NCBI GenBank assembly: GCA_029005135.1
Contig: JAQXFO010000022.1
Span: 2,589 to 66,588, forward strand
DNA length: 64,000 nucleotides
Source of the DNA: Lachnospiraceae bacterium
GTDB lineage: Bacteria; Bacillota; Clostridia; Lachnospirales; Lachnospiraceae
Direction of reading: 5' to 3'
Of the stretch, positions 7,962-37,773 are shown piece after piece; position 1 is the stretch's first letter; each line of letters starts with the position of its first letter. The notes under the pieces are model-generated. The model saw only the letters and a program-made list of their open reading frames with translations. It had not been told where the DNA came from and ran no database searches. A program made the position numbers and the translations under genes.

Positions 7962-9377
7962 TCAGTTCCAGAAATCGGTCTTTTCGCGAATGCCGATATC
8001 GGCAGCCTTGAATACCGGGTTGAGGCCGCGTTTCTTCTGGTCCGTATAGTCCTCCAGGCAACGGATAGCCCTGCCGCCCAGGATCAGGATCACCGGCATG
8101 TTAACGCAGACGATCAGCCCCTGCAGCATATCCGCCGTATCCCAGACGATACCGGCGCTGGCGGCGGCACCGGCCAGAACGATGAGCGACGCCGCCAACC
8201 GGAAGGCCAGAAGCTCAACCTTCTTCGGCTTGCGGTGGATGATGAATTCCAGACAGCCTTCACAGTAGGAATAGTTGCCGATCAGCGTGGTAAAGGCAAA
8301 GAGGGACATCGCGATCGCCAGGAAGATCGGGCCGTAATCGCCGAAGACCGTCGCCAGAGAGGCCTGAACGTAGGGCGCACCGGCCAGTTCCGCCGTCGGT
8401 TCCACCGTGGTGCTCAGGCACAGCAGGCCCGTCGCGCTGCAGATCAGCAGCGTATCGATGAAGACGGACAGCATCTGCACGATGCCCTGCTTGGCCGGAT
8501 GCGACACATCGGCAGTGGCCGCCGCATTCGGTGCGGAGCCCATGCCGGCTTCATTGGAATAGAGGCCGCGCTTGACGCCGTACATCACGCAGGAGCCGGC
8601 AAAGCCGCTGAAAATGGCTTTCACATTGAAGGCATCGGACAAAATGCCGGCGAACATCGCCGGCAGGCGGCCGGCATTGATCACCAGAACCACCAGTGAG
8701 GCCAGCACATAGATCACACCCATGACCGGCACCAGCACTTCGGTAAAATGCGCCAGCCGGCGGGCACCGCCGATGACAATGATGCCGAACAGCACCGCCA
8801 GGATGATGCCGATGACGACCGGCGTGGAAGTTTTATCATAGAAATCAAAGGCCGCAAAGGTCGTCTGCAGGTTATAGGCCGCCAGCATGTTATAGCCGAC
8901 AGCGTAGATCAAGATGATCAGAAAGGAGAAGATCACGCCGAGCCAGCGCTGACCGAGGGCATCCTGCATGTAGAAGGCCGGACCGCCGAAGCTGGAGCCG
9001 TCGGGATTTTTCTTCTTATAGATCTGCGCCAACGTCGATTCCACAAAGGCGGTAGCCCCGCCCAGGATTGCCGTTATCCACATCCAGAAGAGGGCGCCGG
9101 GACCGCCGAGGCAGATGGCCATCGATACGCCGATGATGTTGCCGGTGCCGACGCGGGAGGCTGTCGAGACCATCAGGGCGCCGAAGGAGGAGATGCGGCC
9201 GGCCTTTTCCGGCTTTTCCAGAACGACGCGGAAGGCCTCGCCGAGGCAGCGGACCTGGATAAAACGGCTGCGGATCGTGAAGCAGAAGCCGCCGATCAGC
9301 AGAATAAGGGGCACGAACCAGGGCTGATACAGAAATGCGGAGATGGCTTTGATAACGTCATGAAGGGCGCTGAGCAT
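7962..9377 (-). CDS. alanine/glycine:cation symporter (AGCS family)
   Basis: Roughly 470-aa polytopic membrane protein. SSFGALMVSTASRVGTGNIIGVSMAI and YSNEAGMGSAPNAAATA are AGCS family hallmarks. ATG at 9377 (MLSALHDV). Confidence 0.9.
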   Translation of the reverse strand: MLSALHDVIKAISAFLYQPWFVPLILLIGGFCFTIRSRFIQVRCLGEAFRVVLEKPEKAGRISSFGALMVSTASRVGTGNIIGVSMAICLGGPGALFWMWITAILGGATAFVESTLAQIYKKKNPDGSSFGGPAFYMQDALGQRWLGVIFSFLIILIYAVGYNMLAAYNLQTTFAAFDFYDKTSTPVVIGIILAVLFGIIVIGGARRLAHFTEVLVPVMGVIYVLASLVVLVINAGRLPAMFAGILSDAFNVKAIFSGFAGSCVMYGVKRGLYSNEAGMGSAPNAAATADVSHPAKQGIVQMLSVFIDTLLICSATGLLCLSTTVEPTAELAGAPYVQASLATVFGDYGPIFLAIAMSLFAFTTLIGNYSYCEGCLEFIIHRKPKKVELLAFRLAASLIVLAGAAASAGIVWDTADMLQGLIVCVNMPVILILGGRAIRCLEDYTDQKKRGLNPVFKAADIGIREKTDFWN

Positions 9378-9411
9378 GGGGGAAAGTCCTCTCTTTGTTA
9401 TATTTTCGGAT

Positions 9412-9444
9412 AAAAAAAAGCTGCACACTACAGACGTGCGCAGC
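9412..9444 (-). terminator. intrinsic terminator after rplT
   Basis: Minus-strand RNA forms GCUGCGCAC-loop-GUGUGCAGC (9 bp including one G.U) followed by UUUUUUUU. Confidence 0.75.
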
Positions 9445-14404: not shown

Positions 14405-15703
14405 TCATCCGGCGGGATTGAAACGGGCCAGATTCTTCTTGTCTTCCGGCGTCGGTCTGATCTCACCGGCCTTCGTCAGAGCCCAGCGCGTCAATGTCGG
14501 TCCGACCAGTTCGTAGATCAGCACGCCGAAGAGCACGATATTCCGGATCAGCGCACCTTCTCCCGTCCCGAGAGAGGAAGCCGTCACCGACATGCCGAGA
14601 GCCACGCCGGCCTGCGGAAACAGGGTTATGCCGAGATAGCGGCAGACATCGGGGCTGCTGTGAGCCAGACGGGCGCCGACGGAGGCGCCGGCGTATTTGC
14701 CGATGACACGGACCACAACATAGACAAGGCCCGCGATCACCACGCTCACGGAACTGAATACGCTCAGGTCAAGATCCGCCCCCGACAGCACGAAGAAGGT
14801 GGCAAAAAGCGGCATCGTCCAGCTGTCGGCTCTCTTGAAAATATCCTGGGAGAAGGGACTGAGGTTGCAGAAGACCATTCCCATCATCATCAGAACCAGC
14901 AGATTGGAGAAGGACAGGGTTACCGGCCCCAGCGGAATCTCCAGTGAAGCCACGGCGATGGTGAAAAAGACCAGCGAGATCGTCATGGCCATACGGTTGC
15001 GGTTGGAATAGAAAAGACGTTCCAGCTTTGTCATAACAAAGCCCATCAGAGCACCGAGCGCCAATGAGCCGACGATCTCCAGCAGCGGATTGACCGCCAC
15101 GGTGATCACACTGAGGGTACCGCCCTCCAGGGCCTGGGCGATCCCGAAGGAGACCGCGAAAATGATGAGGCCGGCAGCGTCATCCAGGGCTACCACCGGC
15201 AGCAGAATATCCACAATGGGGCCCTCCGCCTTGTACTGACGGACGACCATCAGCGTTGCCGCGGGGGCCGTCGCCGCCGCTATGGCACCGAGGGTGATGC
15301 AGGCCGACAGCGGCAGCACCTCTTCACCAAGAATCATATGAAGTCCCAGAAGGGCCAGGTCGACCAGCACGCAGGCCGAGAGCACCTCGCCGATCAGCAC
15401 GCGGACCACAGCCCCGCCGACACGCCTGAGTTTCTCGAGCTTGAATTCACTGCCGATGGAGAAGGCGATAAAGCCCAGGGCGGCATCCGTGATCAGCGCC
15501 ATGGCATCGACGGCTTCGAAGGACGTAAACCCGATCCCCGGAATGCCGAGACGGCCCAGGCAATAGGGTCCCACCAGCAGGCCGGCGATCAGGAAGGCCG
15601 TCACATCCGGAAAATTCAGACGGCACCATTTGAAGACACGGGTCATCATCAAACCCGCGAAAAGGGCTATCGCCGTCGCAAACAAAGGTTCCATTTCATT
15701 CAT
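14405..15703 (-). CDS. cation:proton antiporter (CPA family, Na+/H+ exchanger-like)
   Basis: Twelve or so TM segments. LIAGLLVGPYCLG and similar motifs are typical of Kef/NapA-type antiporters. Start trimmed to the ATG at 15703 (MNEMEPLF). The track's extension to 16015 overlaps the divergent HAD gene. Confidence 0.85.
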   Translation of the reverse strand: MNEMEPLFATAIALFAGLMMTRVFKWCRLNFPDVTAFLIAGLLVGPYCLGRLGIPGIGFTSFEAVDAMALITDAALGFIAFSIGSEFKLEKLRRVGGAVVRVLIGEVLSACVLVDLALLGLHMILGEEVLPLSACITLGAIAAATAPAATLMVVRQYKAEGPIVDILLPVVALDDAAGLIIFAVSFGIAQALEGGTLSVITVAVNPLLEIVGSLALGALMGFVMTKLERLFYSNRNRMAMTISLVFFTIAVASLEIPLGPVTLSFSNLLVLMMMGMVFCNLSPFSQDIFKRADSWTMPLFATFFVLSGADLDLSVFSSVSVVIAGLVYVVVRVIGKYAGASVGARLAHSSPDVCRYLGITLFPQAGVALGMSVTASSLGTGEGALIRNIVLFGVLIYELVGPTLTRWALTKAGEIRPTPEDKKNLARFNPAG

Positions 15704-15731
15704 GGTCAAAACCTTCTTTCTTACTTGAATG

Positions 15732-15760
15732 TTGTCTCTTATCAGGCACTTAGCTATAAT
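15732..15760 (+). promoter_or_regulatory. candidate promoter TTGTCT-17-TATAAT placed 7 nt before the HAD start codon
   Basis: TATAAT at 15755-15760 and ATG at 15768. See the finding on possible leaderless translation. Confidence 0.35.
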
Positions 15761-15767
15761 AAGGCTT

Positions 15768-16589
15768 ATGAATAAAAATATCAAACAAATCCTGGCGATC
15801 ATCGCCATCGTCCTGCTGGCGGGCTTGTATCTGTGCGCCTTCGTCTCCGCTTTTTTCAAAAGCGAACTGGCACAGACGCTATTCCGCGCCGCACTGGGCG
15901 GCACCATCATCATTCCGGTCTTCCTGTACGCCTTCCTGCTGGCGGCCAAAGCCTTGAAGCCGGGCAAATCACCCCTCATCGACACCATTGTCTTTGATGT
16001 CGGCAACGTTCTCATCGGTTTTGATTACCTGACATTCTGCCGGGAGGAGCTGGGATTTTCAGAAGAGATCATCACCCTGATGACGACGGACCACCGCTTC
16101 AGTGACCTGTGGCGTGACTTTGATCTGGGACTGCGTCCCTATGAGGAGATCCGCGACGACTATCTGCGGACATTTCCGTCATATCAAACTGAGATCGCAG
16201 CCTTCCTCGACAATATCGACCGGGCTATGGTGCCTTACGGCTACGCTGTCCCGATGCTTGAGGCGCTGAAGCAGCGCGGCTACCGGCTTTATATTCTGTC
16301 GAACTGGAACCGCTTTACCTATGACCGCCTCAGCGAACGCGGCGACATGGCCATCGAGGCTCTGACCGACGGCGCGGCCTGGTCACATCAGACCCATCTT
16401 CTCAAGCCGGATCCCGCCGCATACGCGTATCTGACCGCAGCCTTCGGCATTACGCCGGAGCGGGCTGTCTTTATCGACGACATGGCGGCGAACACGGCCG
16501 CTGCCGCCGAAGCCGGCTATCAGACCATCACCTTCACGGATTATCAGACCATGAAGGACAAACTCGCCGCCCTGGGTGTCCGTTTCTGA
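15768..16589 (+). CDS. HAD-superfamily hydrolase with an N-terminal membrane anchor
   Basis: Two N-terminal TM helices, then HAD motif I FDVGNVL, LSNWN, and motif IV FIDDMAANTAAA. Confidence 0.8.
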   Translation: MNKNIKQILAIIAIVLLAGLYLCAFVSAFFKSELAQTLFRAALGGTIIIPVFLYAFLLAAKALKPGKSPLIDTIVFDVGNVLIGFDYLTFCREELGFSEEIITLMTTDHRFSDLWRDFDLGLRPYEEIRDDYLRTFPSYQTEIAAFLDNIDRAMVPYGYAVPMLEALKQRGYRLYILSNWNRFTYDRLSERGDMAIEALTDGAAWSHQTHLLKPDPAAYAYLTAAFGITPERAVFIDDMAANTAAAAEAGYQTITFTDYQTMKDKLAALGVRF

Positions 16590-19651: not shown

Positions 19652-19915
19652 TCATCGATGAGACGGCAGCTGAACCAGCAGGGTCACGACATCCCCGCGC
19701 ACTTCCGCGACGCCGCTGCCGACCTCGATGCGTGCCTCCGCCCCTTCGTGCCGGCAGAGGACCGTGCCCGCTGCCACCGCGCAGAGCATCGGCGCGTGAC
19801 CCGGCAGAATGCCCACCGTGCCGTCCGTCGACGGCAGGTTAATGTACGAGGCAGCGTCGTGATAAAGCTCACCGCTGCCTGTCATAATGATCAGTGTCAT
19901 AACATGACCGGCCAT
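19652..19915 (-). CDS. atpC: F1 ATP synthase subunit epsilon, short form (beta-sandwich only)
   Basis: INLPSTDGTVGILPGHAPMLCAV...IEVGSGVAEVRGDVVTLLV matches the epsilon N-terminal domain. ATG at 19915 has a GAGGG SD (an alternative ATG is at 19900). It stops after about 87 aa. Confidence 0.8.
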   Translation of the reverse strand: MAGHVMTLIIMTGSGELYHDAASYINLPSTDGTVGILPGHAPMLCAVAAGTVLCRHEGAEARIEVGSGVAEVRGDVVTLLVQLPSHR

Positions 19916-19920
19916 GGTTC

Positions 19921-21336
<1,416 letters not shown>

Positions 21337-22203
21337 TCACAACGGATGATCGGTCGATCTCAGTGCCGAAGCACCGCCGACGATCTCGGCGATCTCGGTT
21401 GTGATAGCCGCCTGACGGGCGTGATTCAGCGCCATTGTCAGTTCGCGGATCATGTCCTCGGTGTTGTCCGATGCCGCCGTCATGGCACGCATGCGGGCGT
21501 TATGCTCGCTGACCCGGCTCTCCAGCATCACGGCATGGATCCTGCTGCCGGTATACAGCTCCGTCAGGGCATCAATAAGCGCGGCCTTTCCCGGCTCATA
21601 GAGGCAGTCTGCCCCTTCGCCGCTGCTGCCTTCGGGAGGCATCACCGGCAGATAGACCTGAGAAGTCACCTGTTGGGTCAGCGCCGTCAGATACTTCTGA
21701 TAGATCAGTTCGATGCGGTCTGTCCTGCCTTCCCGGAAGCGCGTCTTAAGGAAATCCGCGACAACGGCGGCTTCCCCGGGCGTCGGGACATCGCTGAGCG
21801 TGTCAAAATAACGGATGATCGGCAGATTCGAAGCCCGCAGCATCTCCTGCCCCCAGGCGCCGCAGATGACGATCTCGGAATAGTCGTACCGGTGCGCCGT
21901 CAGATAAGCCATCAGATCCTGATTGTAGGAGCCGCACAGGCCGCGATTGCCCAGGAAAACGACGGCGGTCACCGTCCTGACCGCCGGGGGCTGTCTCAGG
22001 TAGGGATTATCCGTCTCCGGCTCTCCGGCCAGAAGAGAGGCCAGCATCTGTTCACTTTTTTCGGAAAATGCCGTCAGGGTGCCTCGCATTTTCTGGACTC
22101 GCCGCATCTTGGAAGCGGCAACCACCTTCATGGACGAGGTGATTTTGCGCGTCCCCTCAATGCTTCTGATCCGCGCCCGGATCGCACGCATACTTGAACT
22201 CAT
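21337..22203 (-). CDS. atpG: F1 ATP synthase subunit gamma
   Basis: MSSSMRAIRARIRSIEGTRKITSSMKVVAASKMRR and the C-terminal ITTEIAEIVGGASAL are canonical gamma. Confidence 0.93.
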   Translation of the reverse strand: MSSSMRAIRARIRSIEGTRKITSSMKVVAASKMRRVQKMRGTLTAFSEKSEQMLASLLAGEPETDNPYLRQPPAVRTVTAVVFLGNRGLCGSYNQDLMAYLTAHRYDYSEIVICGAWGQEMLRASNLPIIRYFDTLSDVPTPGEAAVVADFLKTRFREGRTDRIELIYQKYLTALTQQVTSQVYLPVMPPEGSSGEGADCLYEPGKAALIDALTELYTGSRIHAVMLESRVSEHNARMRAMTAASDNTEDMIRELTMALNHARQAAITTEIAEIVGGASALRSTDHPL

Positions 22204-22216
22204 CGCTGCTCCTTAA

Positions 22217-24451
22217 TCACATCCTGTGAGCTGACAGGAAGTCCCGGGTGTACGCTTCGATATGGGATCTCAAAGCCGCAAGCACCGTCTCGGACAGCTT
22301 TTTGCCGCTCATAACGGCCGCTGTGAGATCCGGCATGGCGGTGTGAACATAGGGCAGCAGGCCCTTTTCGTAGTCCGCCGCATCCTTCAGTGCCACCGCA
22401 TCAACATAGCCCTGACCGGCCGCATAAAGGATAATGACCTGGTCGGCGGCAGACATCGGATGGAACTGGGGCTGCTTGAGGATCTCTGTCATCTTCTCGC
22501 CGCGGTTCAGTGTTTCACGGGTCGTTTTGTCAAGATCGGAACCGAACTGCGAGAAGGCAGCCAATTCACGATACTGGGCCAGCTCCATGCGCAGACGGCC
22601 GGCCACCTGTTTGACCGCCCCCAGCTGAGCGGCGCCGCCGACACGGGAGACCGACAGACCGACGTTGACAGCCGGCCGGACACCGCTGTTGAAAAGCTCA
22701 CTCTCAAGGAAGATCTGACCGTCGGTGATGGAGATCACATTCGTCGGAATATAGGCGGAAATATCACCGTCCTGAGTCTCGATGATCGGCAGGGCCGTCA
22801 TGGAGCCGCCGCCCTTTTCATCACTTAAACGGGCCGCTCTCTCAAGAAGACGGGAATGGACATAGAAAATATCGCCCGGATAAGCCTCACGCCCCGGCGG
22901 ACGCTGCAGAAGCAGCGAGATCTCACGGTAGGCCACTGCCTGCTTGGACAGGTCGTCGTAGACGATCAGCACATCCCGGCCGCTGTACATGAAATACTCA
23001 CCGATGGCGGCGCCGGTATAGGGTGCCAGATAAAGCATCGGCGCGGCTTCAGAGGCATTGGCGGCCACAATGACGGTGTAGTCCATGGCGCCGGCCGCCT
23101 CCAGCCGGCTGACAAAGCCGGCCACGGTGGATTCCTTCTGGCCGATGGCAACATAAACACAGATAACGCCGGTGTCCTTCTGATTGATGATGGCATCAAG
23201 GGCGATGGCGGTCTTGCCTGTCTGGCGGTCACCGATGATCAGCTCGCGCTGTCCGCGTCCGATAGGCACCAGGGCATCCACCGCCTTCAGACCGGTCTGC
23301 AGAGGCACGGTCACGGGCTGACGCTCCAGCACACCGGGCGCCGGACTTTCGATCGGTCTGTGTTCGGTCGTCCGGATGATGCCTTTGTCATCGATGGGAC
23401 GACCGAGGGTATCGACGACACGGCCAATCAGAGCCTCGCCGACCGGAACCTCGATGATGCGGCCGGTACGACGGACTTCATCGCCCTCCTCGATGGCATC
23501 AGGATTATCCAGAAGCATGACACCGGAGGTGCCGTCGAGAAGATCCATCCCCATACCGATGCTGCCGTTAGGGAAGGTCATCATCTCACCGTACATCAGG
23601 CGCTTAAGACCTCTGACATGGGCAATGCCGTCCCGCAGGGTGTCCACATAACCGGCCTCGTAGACAGCCATGCGTCGGCGGCTCCCGTTGATCGTCTCTG
23701 TCAGGGCTTCCTGGAAATCGCCGCCGGTCATACCGTCTGTAAGAATCTCACGGCGGATACGTTCCAGATTGTTTCTGACCGTCGTGTCATAGACCCAGTC
23801 ATCCATTTCAAGGCGGATGCCGCCGATAAGAGCGGGATCTTCACCGATATCATACGAAACCGCCGCCTCGCCGGCGGCAGCGGATGCGGCTGTTTTGATA
23901 AGCGCCAGATCCTCATCGGCAAGGGGACGGGCACAGCGGACCCGGACCGAAACCTTCCGGCCGGTGCAGGGTTTGATGACGCCGCCCAGCATAAGGGCAA
24001 ACTCATGGTTCATGGCCTGAAGCGCCGCCTCTGCGGACGGTGCCGTAAGCTTCTCTTCCGCCGCGGCTATGATCTTATCGGCGGCAGCGGCGGCCAGTTT
24101 ACGGTTCAGCGTCTCCTTCAGCTTTTCTTTGTGGTAAGTGACCCGTTCCTCATAACCGGACACCTCCCGTGCCGTCTCCCTGTCATTATCCTCCCGGAGA
24201 AGGGCAAGGTCACGGCCGGCTTTGGCCCGAACGGCATCGAGTCTTTCCTGATTCTTCCGGCGGCGCTGCGGCGCATCGTCCAAAAGCGCTCTGGCGTCCG
24301 AAAGCGTCTGATCGGCCTCCTTCAGGCTCTGCGCGACTTTGTCGCGATAGGCACCGATCATTTTGCCGGCCAGCCTGCGCCCGATAAAATAAAGGGCTCC
24401 GGCCAGTATCGCAAAATTGATGAATGCCGCAAGCAGGCTCCATCCTTTCAT
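22217..24451 (-). CDS. atpA: fused ATP synthase subunit: b-type stalk + delta (OSCP) C-terminal domain + alpha
   Basis: Single 744-aa ORF. Residues 1-135 form a TM helix plus coiled coil like subunit b. Residues about 160-237 ([22 protein letters not shown]...[32 protein letters not shown]) match the delta C-terminal domain. Residues 241-744 are a full alpha subunit ([16 protein letters not shown]-loop). There is no separate atpH in the operon. Confidence 0.9.
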
Positions 24452-24502
24452 GTCCTGTCAGGCTCCTTCCTGATAATCTGCGTAAAACTCTTCCGCCCCG
24501 CC

Positions 24503-24934
24503 TCAGCCGGCCGCGGCGTCAAGCATGCGTGAGGCCAGAACCGAGGCCAGTTCATCGGCAGACGCCTCCAGACGGCGTCCGGCGTTCTCCCCGGCCAGGC
24601 GCATCGCCTCATCGGCCTCTTCTCGTTTCTCAAGACTCCGCCGGCGTGCATCGGATACCGCCTTCTCCAGAGCCTCACGATGATCCCTGGCGGCCGCGTC
24701 GATGGCCTGACCTGCTTCGATGCGGGAGGCTCTGACAGCGTCATCCGCCGCCTTTTCCTCTTCATCCACAGACCGACGGAGGGCCTCGGCCTCACGGCGG
24801 AGACCGTCGATCTTCTCACGGCGCTTATCCATCACGCCGAGGATCGGCTTGAAGAGCAGGCGGTTCAGAAGAAAAAGAAGGATCAGGAAGTTGATCACTG
24901 TCCAGATGACTTCCGAAATGTTGATCGTTAACAA
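24503..24934 (-). CDS. atpF: Fo ATP synthase subunit b
   Basis: TM helix VIWTVINFLILLFLLNRLLFKPILGVMDKRREKI plus a charged coiled coil. TTG start with AAGGAGAG SD. Confidence 0.85.
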   Translation of the reverse strand: MLTINISEVIWTVINFLILLFLLNRLLFKPILGVMDKRREKIDGLRREAEALRRSVDEEEKAADDAVRASRIEAGQAIDAAARDHREALEKAVSDARRRSLEKREEADEAMRLAGENAGRRLEASADELASVLASRMLDAAAG

Positions 24935-24960: not shown

Positions 24961-25191
24961 TCAGATCTTGCCGACCAGCATGAAGGCGATCAGAAGGCCA
25001 TAGATCGTCAGGGCCTCCATAAGGCCCAGGGCCAGGATCATCGATGTACGGATGGCACCGGCTGCCTCCGGCTGTCGGGCGATGGCATCCATCGCATGAG
25101 AAGCGGCAAGGCCCTGACCGATGGCCGGACCGAGGGTGCTGACAGCCATGGTGATGGCGGCGGCAATGGCGATAATTGCGGATGAATCCAT
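24961..25191 (-). CDS. atpE: Fo ATP synthase subunit c
   Basis: 76-aa hairpin. ARQPEA loop and carboxylate motif LMEALTIYGLL. Confidence 0.94.
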   Translation of the reverse strand: MDSSAIIAIAAAITMAVSTLGPAIGQGLAASHAMDAIARQPEAAGAIRTSMILALGLMEALTIYGLLIAFMLVGKI

Positions 25192-25224: not shown

Positions 25225-25941
25225 TTATTCTTCTTCCTCGATAGCTTCACTGACGTAGATCGAGAAAAGCATCGTAAAAACAAGGGCCTGGATGGCGCAG
25301 AACAGAAGGCTGAGCACCATCATGATCAGCGGTGCGCCGATCGGGAACAGGTTATAGAGATTGGATGTGACACTCTCTTCGCCGTACATATTGCCGAACA
25401 GTCGCAGTGCCAGGGAAAACGGTCTGACGATCTGTTCGATCAGCGTCAGCGGCAGCAAAAGGGCCACGGGCTTTAAAAATGATTTCAGATAGGCCTTAAG
25501 TCCCTTTTCCCGAATGCCCAGCGCATGGGTGAAGACAAAGGTCAGAATAGCCAGAGCTGCCGTCACGGACAGCGAAGCCGTCGGCACGGCAAAGCCTTCG
25601 ACATGGCCGGCGCCGGGCAGGATGCCCAGATAATTACTGACGATGATGAAAATAAAAAACGTGGCAAAGATCGGAAAATACCGCCGGGCGTGCTTTGCCC
25701 CGAGCAGACCGGAAAAGTAATTGACCAGCCCGCCGACAGCCATCTCGGCTGCCGCCTGTACCGGCCCCGGCTCCTCTTTGAGTCTGCGGGTCGCCAGCAC
25801 TGAGATCACAGCCAGCAGAAGTATAACGGCCCAGGTGGTGATCACCGGACCGGTGACCTCCAGGGGTCCGATCGAAAAAATGGCTCCGGATACCTCTTCC
25901 AAACCAACCTCCCCGCCAGAAGTTTCTGACGTATTCAGCAT
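25225..25941 (-). CDS. atpB: Fo ATP synthase subunit a
   Basis: Conserved LSLALRLFGNMYGEE (essential Arg). The ATG at 25941 has no SD. An in-frame TTG at 25902 has GGAGG 5 nt upstream and may be the true start. Confidence 0.88.
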   Translation of the reverse strand: MLNTSETSGGEVGLEEVSGAIFSIGPLEVTGPVITTWAVILLLAVISVLATRRLKEEPGPVQAAAEMAVGGLVNYFSGLLGAKHARRYFPIFATFFIFIIVSNYLGILPGAGHVEGFAVPTASLSVTAALAILTFVFTHALGIREKGLKAYLKSFLKPVALLLPLTLIEQIVRPFSLALRLFGNMYGEESVTSNLYNLFPIGAPLIMMVLSLLFCAIQALVFTMLFSIYVSEAIEEEE

Positions 25942-32879: not shown

Positions 32880-34127
32880 TCACAAGTCCAGTTCCTCCTG
32901 CCACACAAGACCCGCCGGCGGATAGAAGCCGCCGAAGCCCAGGTCCTCGACCCGGATGAGACAGCGGGTCGGCGACAGCATGCTCACGCGAAGCGACAGC
33001 CGTGTCGTCCGGTTGGGCCGGTTCGGCAATCCCGGCAGATCCATCCGGCACTGACGTTTATCGCGTCCGCTGATAGGATTCAGGGAAAATGTCAGAGAGT
33101 CCGTATTATCCAGAATAAACTCACAGTATTTATCGGCGTCGAACCAGTTGCGTCCGGCGGAAATCAACGGGTAATAGGACGGCACGCCGCGGACGACCAT
33201 TTCCATGCCCAGGTTGGTACGGACCAGATCGTCTCCCATGTAGAGCTGTCCCTTCAGGCTGTGGGTCTCCTGTTTTTCCAGGGAGGTGTAGCAGGCCCCG
33301 CGGACATAGAGATTCTCACCGCTGAAGACATGGCGGCGGCTCTGGCAGAGGAAAGCTGTGGATCGGTCGGCCCAGGTCACGTCAAAGCCGCTGCCGCACA
33401 GATAAACCGATGAGAACAGCCGCCGGTTCATCTGCACCCCGGCAAAGGCCAGGAAGGCTTCGTCACGGGCGTATTTCTCCGCCGGCAGCTGTGTCTCCCC
33501 GCCTCGCAGCAGCCGCACGGAGGCCGGCCGCGTCGTGCGGTCCATCGTCAGAGACACGCAGCTGACGGTGTCGCCTTCAAATTCATAGAGAATCGCATCC
33601 CGGGTGCACAGCTCCGGCTTCTGAGAATAAACATAGTAATAGAAACTTTCCATGTGATTCTGAACTGTCAGTGCCTCCGGCGAAAGCCCCAGCGAAAAGC
33701 AGGCCGTACGCAGGTTATCCACCAGCCCCTTGGTCAGGGAACGTGTCGTGACGGTCAGATGGCTGATCGCTCGAATGACATCGCGAACCCCCGTCAGAGC
33801 CAGCGCCTTCTCGAGAAAAACAGCCAGAAGCGCCGCCGGCGTTTTCCTGCGTCCGTCCACCTCGACGTCAGCGGTGCCGCAGAAGACATCGTAGAGATCC
33901 GGTACCGGGACGCCGTTGTCCCGGGAACCGAAATAGTCGGCCTCCAGACCGAAATGCCACTCTTCTTTACCGGCGATCTTGGTCAGATGTGTCGGAAAGG
34001 TATAGAGATTGGTGCCCACCTTGACGGGGACGGACACAGGCTCGCCGGCACGGCGTTCGTAATAGCTGAGCTGACAGCTGTCACGGTTAAGTTCAAAGCC
34101 AATCAGAAGATTGCGGATCTCATTCAC
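32880..34127 (-). CDS. divergent lidless Hsp70-like protein (NBD + SBD-beta, degenerate phosphate loops)
   Basis: By-eye collinear match to DnaK. Matches are LLIGFELNRDSC / IGIDLGTTNSC, AILYEFEGDTVSCVSL / IAVYDLGGGTFDISII, VYLCGSGFD / ILVGGQTRMP, and LGMEM..GLPNRPNRTTRLSLRVSM / LGIET..[18 protein letters not shown]. The GTG start overlaps the upstream stop by 8 nt, with AAGGAGAGGA as SD. Confidence 0.72.
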   Translation of the reverse strand: MNEIRNLLIGFELNRDSCQLSYYERRAGEPVSVPVKVGTNLYTFPTHLTKIAGKEEWHFGLEADYFGSRDNGVPVPDLYDVFCGTADVEVDGRRKTPAALLAVFLEKALALTGVRDVIRAISHLTVTTRSLTKGLVDNLRTACFSLGLSPEALTVQNHMESFYYYVYSQKPELCTRDAILYEFEGDTVSCVSLTMDRTTRPASVRLLRGGETQLPAEKYARDEAFLAFAGVQMNRRLFSSVYLCGSGFDVTWADRSTAFLCQSRRHVFSGENLYVRGACYTSLEKQETHSLKGQLYMGDDLVRTNLGMEMVVRGVPSYYPLISAGRNWFDADKYCEFILDNTDSLTFSLNPISGRDKRQCRMDLPGLPNRPNRTTRLSLRVSMLSPTRCLIRVEDLGFGGFYPPAGLVWQEELDL

Positions 34128-37100
34128 GGCCCTTATCCTCTCCTTCCTCTTTCAGTCTGAACAAGGCGGCTGCCATCTGCGTCAGACGGCTGTAATCCCG
34201 GAGTTTTTCCCGAAGGACCTCCGTCTTGCCCAGCTTCTGTGCCGACAGCATCTGATTGATCAGCTGATAACGGCTGCGGCCCGTCATATCCACACGGGCC
34301 ATCGTTTCTGTCCTCTCGGGTGTTAAGCGGGAAACGCCGTTGTGCTCGATCTTCAGATACCAGGTCAGCACCTCGCCGTAGAACAGCACGAATTCCCGGG
34401 AATACAGACCGTAACACATCTCCCTGAGCGGTTCGCTGACAAAGGGCTCGCCGGTATCGGCAGGTCCGCTGCTTAAGCGGTAATAGAGGGTCACCCGGTC
34501 CTTCGGTCCGGCAAAGGTCTCCACGAAGATCCTGTCCTCGAGGCCGTAACCGGCCAGAGCCCGGCGGGGCAGTTTCCGGCAGAAGCCCAGGCGAATGTCA
34601 TCCTCGGCCATAATCTCCAGGATGCGGTCCGCCCGTCTCTCCTCCTCATCGTCAAGGGATCCCTGATCGGCATAGGCCTGGAGCAGCGCCAGCAGGCAGA
34701 TGCCGTCCAGCTCCCATTTCCGGTCCATAGCCTCCTCCAACAGGCGGCGTGTGTAGGTGTTCAGCGGGCAGAGCCGGCGGAAGGCCTGATGGGATTCAAA
34801 TGTCATCATCGCCAGCACGATGCGTGCCCTGCCGCCCTGCCGGCGGTAGCTGTGCAGGATCTGACCGCCGTCGTTCAGGGAGCGGCGGACAAACATGGCC
34901 TGCATCAGGATCCTTTCATCGAAATCATAGGTCTCCAGATAAAAGGCGGCGGCGCTTTGACGGATCCGAAGACAGATGTCAAGCGGCCCGGTATAGTATT
35001 TCATCAGATAGGTCAGTATGCTGTCATCATACTTGTCATGGCTGAAGACATAGAAGGCCGCCTTGAGAAGGCTGTCATCCGGGCCGTCGGCCTCCCGGAC
35101 ACGGCGGCTCACCAGGGGCATCATCAGCGCCGGGTTGACGCGTTCGTAACCGCAGCGCGTCATGAGGTACCAGGCCTTGGCATCCAGCGCATGGGTCAGA
35201 AGTGTCTCCAGATACCCGATCCTGTCCGTCTTGACAAAGAGGGAATCCCGGACCTTCGACAGAAGGCTCTCCGCCTTCGTACTCAGCGGATGATCGGTAA
35301 AATACGCCAGGATCCCGCGGCAGGCCTTTTCACGGTAAGCCGTCGTGAAGGCGTCGCTATCGGCAATGTAGGCCAGGGCACTGAGGCGGGCCTCTTCATC
35401 GAGGATTTCCGGGCGGCGGCAGGCATGGAGAACCAGGCCGGGCGTCATCACACCCAGCTTCAGGCAGTCGGCAGTCAGTGCCTCGTCATCGGAGAACCTT
35501 TCCAGAGAATAGGCCACACCGGAGGCATAACGGGCCCCCCGGGCATCACAGAAGGCGATCACCGCCTCCGGCGTATAGAGAGGGATATAGGCCGTGCCGC
35601 CCTTCAGCTTGACACAGATCTCCCCCTCCAGCTCGCCGTGCACCACGACGACCTCCCTCATCCGCGGATCATCACAGTAGAGGCGGGCCGTAAAGGCGGT
35701 GCCGGCCAGGGCGCCGGCGATCACACGGTCATCGGCCTTCGGGTAAAACTCGCGGTACAGAACAGCATAATTCTCGTCCATGGCCCCGTCCATCAGGGCC
35801 CGGGCCGTAAATTCGCCCATGGCGGGCAGATAGTCGTCGTAGGTGCCGGGGTCTGCCGTCTTGTTGCGGACGATATTGGCATAGATAAAGGCCATACGGG
35901 ATCGGCTCACACCGCCGGACAGCAGGAAATACTTGCGGATCGGCAGCGGCAGCTTATCACGGAAGGACGGCGGGATCGTCTCGATATAGAACTCATAGAG
36001 GCGTGTCAGGCGCACGCCCTTGTCCACCGCCTCGGCATACCAGCGGAAATACGCCGGCCGCGCCGGCTCTCCCTTCATGATATGGCGGCAGATCGCCTCC
36101 AGCGCTTCGGAAGACGGCCAGCGGTCATAGCCCTCCGTCAGGATCCGGTACATCTGGGGACGGAAGGCCTTCTCATTGTCCGCCAGAAGGCAGACACGGT
36201 TATAAAGGGCCTCCGTCATCAGGTCATAGCGGGCGGCAAACAGGAGTACCCGGCGGGTAAAGGCATTGAGGCGCAGCAGGCTGTCCTGCCAGCGCAGCAG
36301 CGAAACGGCTTCCATATAAAGAAGGGGGCTGCTGCAGCCGCTGCGGTCCATCTCCTCCATCATGCGGAGCTTTTTGCCGGGACTGCGGGCCAGCTCATCG
36401 TCAACCTGCATCAGGATCAGCATCAGCACACTGCTCTCACGACAGCGCTGATACCAGTCGCGCAGGCGCGCCTTCACATCGATGCTGCCGGGCGTCAGAA
36501 GCCCCAGCACATGGCACAGATAGAGAAAGCTGCCCTTGATCTCCAGGCTCTCTCCGGAGAAATCATAGTCCTGCAGAGATCGGACAAGCCGGGATGCCGT
36601 GCCTTTGTCACCCGAGACCCAGGCCACATAAGCTTCATAGAGCGTTATGTCAACCGGGCAAGGACCAAGATCGCGGACGGCAGTGATCGTCATCAGGGAA
36701 CGCCGGCTCCAGGCGGCGGTATCCAGACGGTTCATACGGAAGTCCAGATACAGACGCATCAGACGGGCCCGGCTCTTTCTGACAGCTTCGGCGGCATTCG
36801 GGCGATGGGGACCGCGGCGGGAAGCTGTCACCTCAAAGACAAGACGCTGTTCGTCAGAGGTCAGAATCAGACGCCCATAGCAGCAGGTCCTGCCCAGGCG
36901 GTCGGCATGAATGATATAGGGTACGTCGCAAACAGAGCCGATGAAGTCCTGATCGGTGATCCGGCGGCGCACCGCTTCCAGGAAGCTCCCCTCCGTCTCC
37001 ACACGGAAATTCAGAAGCCCCCAGGTATGGCGTGTCAGACGCAGCGACTCGCAGGTATCGCTGTCCACATGATAAAAAGCGCGGGACGGCTGATCCACAG

Positions 37101-37680
37101 ACACCGTCACAGCCTTTTTCCTGCCGGAAGCGACCAGAAAGGCCTCCAGCCTCTGAGCCGTCACCGGGTTGCGGGACAGGGCACGGTAGAGAGGCAGAAG
37201 TCCCTCATCCTCACCGGTCAGAAGCGACGGAAAACGGCGGCTTGAGAAAAGGCGCAGTGCCTCGCCCCCGGCCTGCTCGCTGAGAGCGGTGAACTCATCC
37301 AGCGTCTCGATACCCGCTGCCCGCCCTTCGCCGACGGCCTCCTCGATATCGAGCTCGATGGGGATGACCTTCTCGCCGGCCGAGGAAACGATCGTGACGG
37401 AAGCCTGCAGCGTATCACCCGGCCGGAGGCCCCGGACATTGATGCTGATTCTGACCGAAACCGACGTGCCGCGGAAGGTCTCCTCCGACAGTGTCACGCG
37501 GGGACTGTCCGTCGACAGGAAGCCGCGTATCGGAACATCCTCCTCCGTGCCGATATTAATCTCCGCCGCATAGTCCGAATCGGCAGGCACCGACGCCGTC
37601 AGGCGCTCCGGCGCCGTGATCAGTTCCGGCGCATCGGGTTCGTATTTCCCGGTAATAAGATGCTCTATTCTGCGTAACAA
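34120..37680 (-). CDS. 1186-aa cytoplasmic protein of unknown function (two N-terminal beta-sandwich-like modules + long helical region)
   Basis: Continuous ORF 34120..37800. I prefer the TTG at 37680 (GGGGGA SD 6 nt upstream), which lies downstream of the promoter at 37754-37726. No TM, signal peptide or catalytic motif recognised. Confidence 0.72.
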   Translation of the reverse strand: MLRRIEHLITGKYEPDAPELITAPERLTASVPADSDYAAEINIGTEEDVPIRGFLSTDSPRVTLSEETFRGTSVSVRISINVRGLRPGDTLQASVTIVSSAGEKVIPIELDIEEAVGEGRAAGIETLDEFTALSEQAGGEALRLFSSRRFPSLLTGEDEGLLPLYRALSRNPVTAQRLEAFLVASGRKKAVTVSVDQPSRAFYHVDSDTCESLRLTRHTWGLLNFRVETEGSFLEAVRRRITDQDFIGSVCDVPYIIHADRLGRTCCYGRLILTSDEQRLVFEVTASRRGPHRPNAAEAVRKSRARLMRLYLDFRMNRLDTAAWSRRSLMTITAVRDLGPCPVDITLYEAYVAWVSGDKGTASRLVRSLQDYDFSGESLEIKGSFLYLCHVLGLLTPGSIDVKARLRDWYQRCRESSVLMLILMQVDDELARSPGKKLRMMEEMDRSGCSSPLLYMEAVSLLRWQDSLLRLNAFTRRVLLFAARYDLMTEALYNRVCLLADNEKAFRPQMYRILTEGYDRWPSSEALEAICRHIMKGEPARPAYFRWYAEAVDKGVRLTRLYEFYIETIPPSFRDKLPLPIRKYFLLSGGVSRSRMAFIYANIVRNKTADPGTYDDYLPAMGEFTARALMDGAMDENYAVLYREFYPKADDRVIAGALAGTAFTARLYCDDPRMREVVVVHGELEGEICVKLKGGTAYIPLYTPEAVIAFCDARGARYASGVAYSLERFSDDEALTADCLKLGVMTPGLVLHACRRPEILDEEARLSALAYIADSDAFTTAYREKACRGILAYFTDHPLSTKAESLLSKVRDSLFVKTDRIGYLETLLTHALDAKAWYLMTRCGYERVNPALMMPLVSRRVREADGPDDSLLKAAFYVFSHDKYDDSILTYLMKYYTGPLDICLRIRQSAAAFYLETYDFDERILMQAMFVRRSLNDGGQILHSYRRQGGRARIVLAMMTFESHQAFRRLCPLNTYTRRLLEEAMDRKWELDGICLLALLQAYADQGSLDDEEERRADRILEIMAEDDIRLGFCRKLPRRALAGYGLEDRIFVETFAGPKDRVTLYYRLSSGPADTGEPFVSEPLREMCYGLYSREFVLFYGEVLTWYLKIEHNGVSRLTPERTETMARVDMTGRSRYQLINQMLSAQKLGKTEVLREKLRDYSRLTQMAAALFRLKEEGEDKGRE

Positions 37681-37699
37681 AAGTGTTCCCCCTGCGGAC

Positions 37700-37754
37700 T
37701 TGACCAGACATCTTTTACAGCGTAAATTATATATCAGTTCGCACTTTTGCGCAA
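37700..37754. promoter_or_regulatory. overlapping divergent promoters
   Basis: Plus strand: TTGACC (37700-37705), 17-nt spacer, TAAATT (37723-37728). Minus strand: TTGCGC (37754-37749), 17-nt spacer, TATAAT (37731-37726). The two -10 boxes overlap in taaattatatat. Confidence 0.5.
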
Positions 37755-37773
37755 TTTCATGAAAGGAACCGCC

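What the first reader, a model, noticed from the sequence alone, without database searches (positions are those of the whole stretch)
22217..24451. Single 744-aa ORF fuses a b-type stalk, the delta C-terminal domain and the alpha subunit; no separate delta gene
Seen: the operon order is a, c, b, [744-aa ORF], gamma, beta, epsilon.
- Residues 1-135 are a TM helix plus charged coiled coil: [43 protein letters not shown], like subunit b.
- Residues about 160-237 reproduce the delta/OSCP C-terminal domain: ...[32 protein letters not shown] versus the usual DPSLIGG..V..GD.V.D.SV...L..L.
- From residue 241 a complete alpha follows.
- There is no stop codon and no stand-alone atpH.
- The delta N-terminal helical bundle, which normally grips the alpha N-terminus, is absent.

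Inference: a covalent link to alpha would make that bundle redundant. Mycobacteria are known to fuse b and delta, but I do not know of a described b-delta-alpha fusion. The separate atpF (24503-24934) would then give a b / b-prime-like heterodimeric stalk.
Basis: partly seen in the sequence, partly recalled or inferred. Interest (0 to 1): 0.7.

Follow-up and report, generated by a model that had tools for sequence, protein, structure and literature searches.

The report
Stalk-fused ATP synthase alpha subunit
In this gut/rumen Clostridia bacterium and at least 40 related species, one gene joins a membrane-anchored stalk arm and the tip domain of the delta subunit to the catalytic alpha subunit of the ATP synthase, so every one of the three alpha copies should carry its own stalk, a three-stalk design so far only shown in an engineered enzyme.

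Summary
ORF 22217-24451 (-) encodes 744 aa made of a b-like membrane helix and long helix (1-158), the delta/OSCP C-terminal domain only (166-238), and a complete F-type alpha (241-744). It sits in an a-c-b-[fusion]-gamma-beta-epsilon operon with no separate delta gene.

It is not an artefact:
- The same ORF recurs in independent assemblies.
- The same architecture and operon occur in at least 46 species genomes of gut and rumen Clostridia.
- The delta-to-alpha spacing is invariant (51 residues in 36 of 38).
- The N-terminal start has a strong ribosome-binding site. No conserved internal start exists for a free alpha.

The junction region matches, by sequence and by predicted fold, the engineered deltaΔN-alpha chain of Bacillus PS3 (PDB 9JC1). 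That design gave up to three peripheral stalks and extra a-subunits.

The most likely reading is therefore a natural multi-stalk F-ATP synthase. Each alpha would be tethered to the membrane by its own b'/b stalk. How many a-subunits it holds is not shown.

The idea is partly anticipated. Ueno et al. 2025 noted a natural deltaΔN-alpha fusion in Acidaminococcus. I found no description of a fusion that also includes b. NCBI annotation starts this alpha at the internal Met241, which hides the fusion.

The parts
25225..25941 (-). atpB, Fo subunit a (238 aa from the first ATG; called as 225 aa on the sister contig L081)
   Evidence: PF00119 ATP-synt_A, E 3.5e-46; gene call on L081
24961..25191 (-). 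atpE, Fo subunit c (76 aa)
   Evidence: PF00137 ATP-synt_C, E 4.6e-17
24503..24934 (-). atpF, free subunit b (143 aa), the presumed partner of the fused b-like arm
   Evidence: PF00430, E 1.8e-17. No BLASTP similarity to the fused b-like part. A free b of 138-161 aa is present in every related operon whose upstream side is on the contig.
24463..24470 (-). Shine-Dalgarno-like GGAAGGAG, 11 nt upstream of the ATG of the fusion ORF
   Evidence: Sequence. Duplex energy with the anti-SD is -7.3 kcal/mol here, median -11.5 in 38 operons.
22217..24451 (-). Whole fusion ORF, 744 aa plus stop: b'-like arm, delta C-terminal domain, alpha
24380..24439 (-). Residues about 5-24, the hydrophobic membrane helix ([20 protein letters not shown]). 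It is the most conserved stretch of the N-terminal part.
   Evidence: Alignment A3: N12, L16 and L20 invariant, and G3, W4, F13, I15, A17, G24 and K26 at 90% or more in 30 species
23978..24451 (-). Residues 1-158, b-like stalk arm (membrane helix plus long helix)
   Evidence: PF00430, 29.9 bits on the N-terminal 300 aa, found in 30/30 relatives. PRK07352 subunit B, E 8e-9. AlphaFold helices 3-135 and 138-158, pLDDT 70-87.
23738..23956 (-). Residues 166-238, delta/OSCP C-terminal domain (four strands, two helices). The delta N-terminal bundle is absent.
   Evidence: PF00213 166-235 to profile 102-171/172. Secondary structure. Own delta HMM, E 4e-11.
23669..23737 (-). Residues 239-261, junction: short linker plus the alpha N-terminal helix (246-256). 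It includes Met241 (ATG 23729-23731), where NCBI starts its 504-aa alpha.
   Evidence: Spacing from the delta GDTVYD motif to the alpha DGIC motif is 51 residues in 36 of 38 operons. Met241 is not conserved and its SD energy is -2.7. The NCBI member of 504 aa is.
22217..23731 (-). Residues 241-744, complete F1 alpha subunit
   Evidence: TIGR00962, 743 bits. PF02874, PF00006 and PF00306.
21337..22203 (-). atpG, gamma (288 aa)
   Evidence: PF00231, E 3.6e-75
19921..21336 (-). atpD, beta (ORF 471 aa; probably 463 aa from the ATG at 21312, as called on L081)
   Evidence: PF00006 and PF02874
19652..19915 (-). atpC, epsilon, 87 aa. Beta-sandwich domain only, with no C-terminal helical domain.
   Evidence: PF02823 only. 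ATG at 19915 preceded by GAGGG. Called as 87 aa on L081. Most epsilon ORFs are 87-91 aa in the related operons.

Best explanation
**Shown**
- The ORF is one real gene, and its product is a single polypeptide.
- That polypeptide has an N-terminal b-type membrane anchor and long stalk helix, the C-terminal (b-binding) domain of delta, and a full alpha subunit.

**Inferred**
- The F1 head contains three alphas, and no separate alpha gene or conserved internal start is present. Every alpha therefore brings its own stalk arm.
- The delta N-terminal bundle, which normally sits on the three-fold axis and limits the enzyme to one stalk, is missing. The three arms can therefore all be accommodated.
- Each arm most likely pairs with one copy of the free 143-aa b to form a b/b' coiled coil.
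- The result would be a natural F-type ATP synthase whose head is tied to the membrane by three peripheral stalks.

**More weakly inferred**
- In the engineered analogue each stalk recruits an a-subunit. Here the stalks may likewise hold two or three a-subunits around the c-ring.
- That would multiply the ions moved per ATP and allow ATP synthesis at low membrane potential. It could equally mean pumping more ions per ATP, against a lower maximum gradient. Either would suit energy-limited fermenting anaerobes.
For: **Real, conserved gene**
- More than 120 clusters (at 90% identity) of 744-752-aa proteins share the same five Pfam domains, from ENA, NCBI, JGI and Logan assemblies.
- Of the 47 Clostridia loci returned by the genome scan, 39 have an intact 745-757-aa fusion ORF (two show as 777 and 812 aa from an upstream in-frame start codon) in the order a-c-b-fusion-gamma-beta-epsilon. 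Four more cross the junction before the contig ends. None has a separate delta gene.
- A further, more distant lineage has the same operon.

**Translated from the b-like N-terminus**
- The N-terminal 26 residues are the best conserved part of the arm and align from residue 1 in 30 species.
- The start codon has a strong SD, with median duplex energy -11.5 kcal/mol.

**No free alpha expected**
- In-frame ATG, GTG or TTG codons in the junction have no conserved position.
- Their SD energies (mean -4.2, n=107) equal those of background internal codons (mean -4.05, n=1655).
- Two operons have no candidate start codon there at all.
- Met241 of the window is unique to it.

**The junction is structural**
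- The delta-to-alpha spacing is 51 residues in 36 of 38 operons, despite about 30% identity in this part.

**Equivalence to the engineered enzyme**
- Residues 151-330 hit 9jc1_I (delta-alpha fusion chain) at E 1.5e-24. The alignment is collinear across the junction. The next hits are plain alpha chains at 1e-11.
- The AlphaFold model of residues 141-345 (pLDDT 83, pTM 0.78) matches 9jc1 chains K, I and J with TM 0.64-0.67 over 175 columns at E 6e-14. Plain alpha chains reach TM 0.40 over about 100 columns.
- For that engineered enzyme, cryo-EM showed one to three stalks, more a- and b-subunits, and H+/ATP of 5.8 against 3.0 (PMC12229609).

**Natural precedent**
- Chloroflexus aurantiacus F1Fo has two stalks and two a-subunits (PMC12002316).
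Against: - No protein-level evidence exists for this organism or its relatives. Cleavage of the linker after translation cannot be excluded from sequence.
- Weak, unconserved internal starts exist in the window itself: Met261 with SD -6.6 and GTG269 with SD -5.9. They could give some free alpha in this species.
- The number of a-subunits and of free b copies per complex is unknown.
- Nothing in the a or c genes looks unusual.
- The full-length AlphaFold model was poor for the nucleotide-binding domain, with pLDDT 20-30. Only the N-terminal third is usable.
- The structure alignment for the sub-model had only 7 sequences.
- Only one 64-kb window of the genome is available. A second alpha or delta gene elsewhere cannot be ruled out.
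Confidence: 0.6

Rival explanations
1. One stalk only. The gene gives two products: a minority full-length b'-delta-alpha that forms the single stalk, and a majority free alpha. The free alpha would come from internal initiation near the old atpA start or from cleavage in the linker. The enzyme would then be an ordinary one-stalk F-ATPase with a covalently attached stalk, comparable to the mycobacterial b-delta fusion.
For: - The window has an ATG exactly at the ancestral alpha start (Met241), and NCBI's pipeline calls a 504-aa alpha from it.
- Two further in-frame starts with moderate SD lie nearby: Met261 at -6.6 and GTG269 at -5.9.
- One stalk is the rule in nearly all solved F-type enzymes (PMC12229609, PMC12002316).
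Against: - Met241 has a poor SD (-2.7) and is not conserved in any of 29 aligned relatives.
- Junction start-like codons are no better than background, and are absent in L021 and L052.
- Without the delta N-terminal bundle nothing is known that would restrict binding to one alpha (PMC12229609).
- Proteolysis is untestable here.
Confidence: 0.2
2. Three stalks but one a-subunit. All three alphas are tethered, yet only one stalk holds the single proton-conducting a-subunit. The other two act as braces, as the extra EG stalks do in V-type ATPases. The ion-to-ATP ratio would then be unchanged, and the benefit would be stability or assembly.
For: - V/A-type enzymes have two or three stalks with one a-subunit (PMC12002316, on Thermus V1Vo).
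- The operon has one a gene with nothing unusual about it.
- The stoichiometry of a is not fixed by the fusion.
Against: - In both F-type cases studied, each stalk carries an a-subunit. These are the engineered PS3 enzyme and the natural Chloroflexus enzyme.
- In F-type enzymes the b membrane helices are the a-binding elements.
Confidence: 0.17
3. Artefact or decaying gene. The ORF would be a mis-assembly, a frameshift error joining atpF', atpH and atpA, or a pseudogene of a paralogous operon.
For: - The sequence comes from metagenome-type assemblies.
- Three related MAG loci do show frame breaks: L040, L042 and L044.
- L088 is split in the linker.
Against: - The same 744-aa ORF occurs in at least 8 separate contigs of this species-level cluster.
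- 39 intact orthologues occur in distinct species, with invariant junction length.
- The frame breaks in L040 and L044 lie inside alpha and the one in L042 lies inside the b-like arm, not at a domain border.
- All catalytic alpha motifs are intact, at 743 bits to TIGR00962.
Confidence: 0.02

Closest known systems
Engineered deltaΔN-alpha fused FoF1 of Bacillus PS3 (PDB 9JC1; Ueno et al. 2025, Nat Commun 16:5410, PMC12229609)
   Same: - The delta C-terminal domain, without the N-terminal bundle, is fused in frame to the alpha N-terminus.
- The junction is nearly the same length: 51 residues between the motifs here, about 54 in the design by my count of the alignment.
- It is the best sequence and fold match in the PDB.
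- That construct also lacked the epsilon C-terminal domain, as the natural epsilon does here.
   Different: - In the design, b is a free homodimer, so stalk number varied from 1 to 3.
- Here one arm of each stalk is covalently part of alpha and a second, different b is free. Three arms are therefore obligatory.
- This enzyme is natural, and nothing about it has been measured.
Natural delta(no N-domain)-alpha fusion noted in Acidaminococcus fermentans (UniProt D2RLW6; also G4Q3K6 and A0A1I2C5T3), mentioned in the Discussion and Supplementary Fig. 9 of PMC12229609
   Same: - A natural atp operon in an anaerobic Bacillota member in which delta lacks its N-domain and is fused to alpha.
- The authors proposed a multi-stalk enzyme for it.
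   Different: - It is described as a delta-alpha fusion only. I could not obtain those sequences, so whether b is fused there is unknown.
- A 593-aa deltaCTD-alpha with a separate b'-deltaCTD gene does exist in another lineage (L086). Two-part and three-part versions are therefore distinct natural forms.
Mycobacterial b-delta fusion (atpH encoding b-delta, next to a separate b)
   Same: - Operon logic of a-c-b-(b fused to delta)-alpha.
- A heterodimeric stalk made of a free b and a b-like arm covalently joined to delta (PMC5709465; NCBIfam PRK13428 'subunit B/delta' exists).
   Different: - Mycobacterial b-delta keeps the whole delta, including the N-terminal domain, and is not joined to alpha.
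- PRK13428 does not match this protein significantly.
N-ATPase subunit AtpF_N (TIGR03321, b plus delta C-terminal part)
   Same: - The N-terminal 240 aa align end to end with TIGR03321: residues 4-235 to profile 6-244 of 246, E 4e-8.
- N-ATPase operons also lack atpH (PMC2881411).
   Different: - The score is far below the family cutoff: 33 bits against 224.7.
- The operon order is the ordinary F-type one, not atpDCQRBEFAG, and there is no AtpQ or AtpR.
- Alpha is TIGR00962, not the alternate alpha TIGR03324 (623 bits against a cutoff of 750.5).
- AtpF_N is not fused to alpha.
Chloroflexus aurantiacus F1Fo with two stalks and two a-subunits (PMC12002316)
   Same: A natural F-type enzyme in which a reduced delta N-domain goes with more than one stalk and more than one a-subunit.
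   Different: There delta is a free protein that dimerises through a shortened N-domain, and there is no fusion. The stalk number is two, not three.
V/A-type ATPases with two or three EG peripheral stalks
   Same: Several stalks link the catalytic head to the membrane sector. The E subunit has been equated with b plus delta (PMC2881411).
   Different: EG stalks have no membrane helix, attach to a single a-subunit, and are not fused to the catalytic subunits. All subunits here are F-type by profile.

Membership tests
F-type ATP synthase alpha subunit (NCBIfam TIGR00962 atpA) | Full-length match above the curated cutoff, with the beta-barrel, nucleotide-binding and C-terminal domains | tested here: met
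   743 bits against a cutoff of 484.45, residues 245-738 to profile 6-501/503. PF02874, PF00006 and PF00306 all present.
Delta/OSCP subunit (Pfam PF00213) | N-terminal helical bundle (profile positions about 1-100) that binds the alpha N-termini on top of F1 | tested here: not met
   Only profile positions 102-171 match. The preceding residues are one long helix with b-type profile matches.
Delta/OSCP subunit (Pfam PF00213) | C-terminal alpha/beta domain that binds the b C-terminus | tested here: met
   E 3e-12, 47 bits against a cutoff of 22.3. Found in 30/30 relatives. The predicted fold has four strands and two helices at pLDDT about 90.
Fo subunit b/b' (Pfam PF00430) | N-terminal membrane helix followed by a long charged helix, scoring above the gathering score | tested here: inconclusive
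   21.2 bits (below 28) on the whole protein. 29.9 bits (above 28) on the N-terminal 300 aa, and 30/30 relatives match at E<1e-3, best 1.6e-13. Helix 3-135 in the model. Pairing with the free b is not testable here.
Natural deltaΔN-alpha fusion class (as defined in PMC12229609 for A. fermentans) | Delta C-terminal domain fused in frame to the alpha N-terminus; delta N-domain missing; no separate atpH in the operon | tested here: met
   for the window. for relatives. Collinear match to the engineered chain 9jc1_I across the junction.
Multi-stalk F-type ATP synthase (engineered PS3; Chloroflexus) | More than one peripheral stalk and more than one a-subunit per complex, seen by structure or stoichiometry | not testable with these tools
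   Needs purified complex. Only the genetic precondition is shown: every alpha carries an arm and there is no delta N-domain.
N-ATPase (alternate F1Fo) | Operon atpDCQRBEFAG with AtpQ and AtpR, and alternate alpha, beta and b above the curated cutoffs | tested here: not met
   The order is a-c-b-alpha-gamma-beta-epsilon. TIGR03324 scores 623 against 750.5, TIGR03321 scores 33 against 224.7, and TIGR03305 scores 106 against 752.
Mycobacterial-type b-delta fusion (NCBIfam PRK13428) | A b-like arm fused to a complete delta | tested here: not met
   PRK13428 is absent from the hits of the N-terminal 240 aa. The delta N-domain is absent.

The most novel reading that the evidence does not exclude
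A large clade of gut and rumen Clostridia runs an obligately three-stalked F-type ATP synthase. Each alpha is covalently tethered to the membrane and each stalk holds its own a-subunit. The c-ring would then pass three ion channels per turn, and the ion-to-ATP ratio would be about three times that of a normal enzyme with the same ring (roughly one ion per c-subunit per ATP). This would be the natural counterpart of the engineered triple-stalk enzyme. It would be a previously unrecognised way for fermenters to make ATP from very small ion gradients.
Probability: 0.3. Interest if true: 0.85.

Novelty: new variant of a known kind. Interest (0 to 1): 0.62.

Why it matters
**For the field**
- Textbook F-type ATP synthases have one peripheral stalk and one a-subunit, and the ion-to-ATP ratio is set only by c-ring size.
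- In 2025 an engineered delta-alpha fusion and the Chloroflexus structure showed that extra stalks and a-subunits are possible and raise that ratio.
- This finding supplies a natural, widespread and genetically obligatory version. The stalk arm is part of alpha itself, so the enzyme cannot have fewer than three arms.
- It makes testable whether nature uses multi-stalk F-ATPases to live on small gradients. The operon could be expressed and imaged.

**For annotation**
- NCBI's pipeline calls alpha from an internal methionine and so hides the fusion. Surveys of ATP synthase subunit content would score these genomes as lacking delta.

Tried and rejected
1. The genome-collection scan with the single protein found nothing. 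Alignment A1 was too diverse to give patterns. The scan worked with four closer sequences.
2. Loci L046-L080 from that scan (PVC group, Planctomycetes, Rhodothermales, Kuenenia) looked like delta-alpha fusions because tblastn ran across the gene border. ORF analysis shows separate, adjacent or overlapping delta and alpha genes, so they were rejected as fusions.
3. Protein searches with the N-terminal 300 aa alone and with the 30-sequence profile returned only 3 and 9 hits. The word index was swamped. They were useless for counting family size.
4. The full-length AlphaFold model was poor for residues 332-666, so the TM and rmsd values are meaningless. I replaced it with a sub-model of residues 141-345.
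5. The internal-start hypothesis was tested and not supported.
6. L088 at first looked like an unfused intermediate (b'-deltaCTD followed by a 478-aa alpha). The alpha ORF begins exactly at the conserved DVYQ just after the linker, in another frame. It is most likely a frameshifted triple fusion on a single contig.
7. I could not retrieve the Acidaminococcus proteins (D2RLW6 and the others), so the comparison with them rests on the paper's wording only.
8. BLASTP of the free b against the fused b-like arm showed no similarity. A recent duplication origin of the arm is not supported.
Full report
**Observation**

The window carries, on the minus strand, an uninterrupted ORF 22217..24451 of 744 codons.
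- It lies in an ordinary F-type gene order: a (25225-25941), c (24961-25191), b (24503-24934, 143 aa), the ORF, gamma (21337-22203), beta (19921-21336) and epsilon (19652-19915). Each is identified by its Pfam family.
- The intergenic gaps around the ORF are 51 and 13 nt, so there is no room for a delta gene.
- A delta profix built here and searched against every stop-to-stop segment of the 64-kb window hits only this ORF.

**Domain content**

| Residues | Match | Source |
|---|---|---|
| 245-738 | NCBIfam atpA TIGR00962, nearly end to end, 743 bits against a cutoff of 484 | |
| N-terminal arm | ATP-synt_B, borderline: 21 bits in the whole protein, 29.9 bits (gathering score 28) when the first 300 residues are scanned alone | |
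| N-terminal arm in relatives | ATP-synt_B in 30 of 30 relatives, E down to 1.6e-13 | |

- AlphaFold gives a helix at 3-135, a helix at 138-158, a four-strand two-helix domain at 166-238, a short linker, the alpha N-terminal helix at 246-256 and the crown barrel at 262-332. All have pLDDT of about 70-90.

**Is it real?**

- The protein's 90% cluster holds seven other 744-aa members from different ENA contigs.
- One independent contig has the identical operon.
- A whole-protein search returned more than 120 further clusters of 747-752 aa at 56-58% identity with the same five Pfam domains. Many were seen on tens of contigs from ENA, NCBI, JGI and Logan.
- A scan of one genome per GTDB species found 222 matching genomes. 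Of the 80 loci kept, 47 come from Oscillospiraceae, Ruminococcaceae, Candidatus Limivicinus or 'Clostridiales' MAGs of human gut, Hadza gut, chicken and ruminants.
- My ORF and profile survey of those loci gave:
  - 39 intact fusion ORFs of 745-757 aa (two print as 777 and 812 aa because the ORF finder took an upstream in-frame start codon);
  - 4 that cross the delta-alpha junction before the contig ends;
  - 1 with the N-terminus only;
  - 3 with a frame break elsewhere, inside alpha or inside the arm.
- Wherever the contig extends far enough, the order is a, c, b (138-161 aa), fusion, gamma, beta, and an epsilon ORF that is 87-91 aa in most loci. There is never a separate delta.
- A more distant lineage (28% identity in the arm) has the same operon.
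- The remaining loci of that scan (PVC group, Planctomycetes and others) are not fusions but ordinary adjacent delta and alpha genes.

**One product or two?**

NCBI's annotation of a MAG of this very species gives a 504-aa alpha, i.e. a start at Met241. I tested whether an internal start is a conserved feature.
- Across 38 operons the annotated N-terminal start has a strong ribosome-binding site: median duplex energy -11.5 kcal/mol, and -7.3 in the window.
- The first 26 residues (MxGWNIFYGLINFAILAAALYFIGRK) are the best conserved part of the arm and align from residue 1.
- In the junction, in-frame ATG, GTG or TTG codons have no conserved position. Their SD energies (mean -4.2, n=107) are the same as those of internal codons elsewhere in the ORF (mean -4.05, n=1655).
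- Two operons have no candidate start there at all.
- Met241 is unique to the window and has a poor SD (-2.7).
- The distance from the delta GDTVYD motif to the alpha DGIC motif is exactly 51 residues in 36 of 38 operons, although this part is only about 30% identical. This points to a structured, selected connection rather than a relic intergenic region.
- The simplest reading is that alpha exists only as the fusion protein. Proteolysis after translation cannot be addressed from sequence.

**What it resembles**

- Residues 151-330 were searched against all PDB sequences. The best hit is 9jc1 chain I, named 'ATP synthase delta subunit, ATP synthase subunit alpha' (E 1.5e-24). The alignment runs straight through the junction. 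The next hits are plain alpha chains at 1e-11.
- 9JC1 is the engineered deltaΔN-alpha FoF1 of Bacillus PS3 (Ueno et al. 2025, PMC12229609).
- A confident AlphaFold model of residues 141-345 (pLDDT 83, pTM 0.78) also finds 9jc1 chains K, I and J first: TM 0.64-0.67, 175 columns, rmsd 4.7-4.9 Å, E 6e-14. Plain alpha chains reach TM 0.40 over about 100 columns.
- The search with the full-length model also ranked 9jc1 first, but its TM values are meaningless because the nucleotide-binding domain was badly modelled.

**Mechanism**

Ueno et al. showed the following:
- The delta N-terminal domain occupies the three-fold axis on top of F1 and thereby limits the enzyme to one stalk.
- Deleting it and fusing the delta C-terminal domain to each alpha gave complexes with one to three b2 stalks.
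- These complexes had about twice the a and b content and an H+/ATP of 5.8 instead of 3.0. Cryo-EM classes had three stalks.

Zhang et al. found a natural two-stalk, two-a-subunit enzyme in Chloroflexus, linked to a shortened delta N-domain.

The window's protein has the same deltaΔN-alpha core and in addition carries one arm of the stalk itself.
- With three alphas per head this gives three membrane-anchored arms by construction.
- The separate 143-aa b matches the b family but is unrelated in sequence to the arm.
- *Shown:* the gene, its conservation, the domain order and the lack of a conserved internal start.
- *Inferred:* three assembled stalks.
- *More weakly inferred:* more than one a-subunit and a raised ion-to-ATP ratio.

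The rivals are listed with their tests in the rival explanations. They are one fused plus two free alphas, three stalks with one a-subunit, and artefact.

**Relation to known systems and novelty**

- b fused to the delta C-terminal part is known from N-ATPase AtpF_N (PMC2881411). The first 240 residues align end to end with that model, but far below its cutoff. The operon and alpha are ordinary F-type, so this is not an N-ATPase.
- b fused to a complete delta is known from mycobacteria.
- A natural deltaΔN-alpha fusion was pointed out for Acidaminococcus fermentans and two other UniProt entries in one paragraph and one supplementary figure of Ueno et al.. No experiments were reported on it.
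- I found no description of the three-part b-delta-alpha fusion or of its spread in gut and rumen Clostridia in the searchable library. [quoted passage not shown]
- I could not obtain the Acidaminococcus sequences, so I cannot say whether b is fused there.
- I rate this a new variant of a known kind. It is interesting because it is natural, obligatory and widespread, and because annotation hides it. It is tempered by the 2025 anticipation and the absence of any protein-level evidence.

**Related forms seen on the way**

- Another lineage splits the same parts differently. It has a 267-aa b'-deltaCTD gene followed by a 593-aa deltaCTD-alpha gene, with two paralogous delta C-domains in tandem (L086).
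- Stand-alone b-deltaCTD proteins of 240-260 aa are common among the distant hits, and all score below the N-ATPase cutoff.
- One operon has a delta with three tandem C-terminal domains, and another protein has two.

Together these suggest that loss or multiplication of the stalk-limiting geometry has happened several times.

Noticed in passing
window 23729-23731 (Met241) and NCBI protein MDD6347113.1: NCBI's annotation of a MAG of the same species-level cluster gives a 504-aa 'F0F1 ATP synthase subunit alpha [Lachnospiraceae bacterium]', starting at the internal Met241. The 240-codon b-delta part is thus cut off and the fusion is invisible in that record. Other gene callers (ENA, JGI) call the full 744-752 aa.
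   Followed up: partly
window 19652-19915 (-): Epsilon is only 87 aa. It has the beta-sandwich domain without the C-terminal helical (auto-inhibitory) domain. Most related fusion operons have an epsilon ORF of 87-91 aa (longer calls are ORF-start artefacts). The L086 and L088 lineages keep a 138-139-aa epsilon with PF00401.
   Followed up: partly
L086 5001-5804 and 5809-7590 (NCBI GCA_036651655.1, contig JAVVXJ010000049.1); also L087: A different natural split of the same parts. A 267-aa b'-delta-C-domain gene is directly followed by a 593-aa delta-C-domain-alpha gene, so two paralogous delta C-domains sit in tandem. The operon is a-c-b-[b'δC]-[δC-alpha]-gamma-beta-epsilon, seen on 5 contigs. 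It may be the Acidaminococcus-like form, or a secondary split of the triple fusion.
   Followed up: partly
L085 2271-3509 (Logan ERR9598561), protein P0191; also P0289: A 412-aa delta subunit with a complete delta followed by two extra tandem copies of the C-terminal domain (three PF00213 stretches). It sits in an otherwise normal atpI-a-c-b-delta-alpha-gamma-beta operon. P0289 (282 aa) has one extra copy. This could be another natural route to several stalks.
   Followed up: partly
proteins P0172, P0176, P0186, P0190, P0204, P0214, P0215, P0220 (one search hits): Many stand-alone 240-260-aa proteins combine a b-type arm with a delta C-terminal domain. All score below the curated N-ATPase AtpF cutoff (at most 139 bits against 224.7). 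The b-plus-deltaCTD architecture may therefore be commoner than the N-ATPase family alone. Their operons were not examined.
   Followed up: no
L088 5001-7242 (JGI 3300053042): A single contig where the b'-deltaCTD ORF (260 aa) stops in the linker. A 478-aa alpha ORF starts in another frame exactly at the conserved DVYQ. This is probably a frameshifted triple fusion, but a genuine split cannot be excluded.
   Followed up: partly
window 24961-25191 (-): The c-subunit ion site reads Q26 ... E59-A60-L61-T62-I63-Y64. The Ser/Thr pair that helps bind Na+ in Ilyobacter-type c-subunits (S66/T67, from my own knowledge) is Ala-Leu here, so the enzyme is probably proton-coupled. This was not tested.
   Followed up: no
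window 34120-37800 (-): A 1226-aa protein made entirely of the two DUF5717 domains (E 1e-203 and 6e-79). It is a large conserved protein of unknown function.
   Followed up: no
window 7962-9428 (-) and 14405-16015 (-): A Na+:alanine symporter family protein and a Na+/H+ exchanger family protein lie within 15 kb of the atp operon. This is relevant background for which ion gradients this organism uses. No Rnf or V-type ATPase genes were found among the ten largest other ORFs scanned.
   Followed up: no
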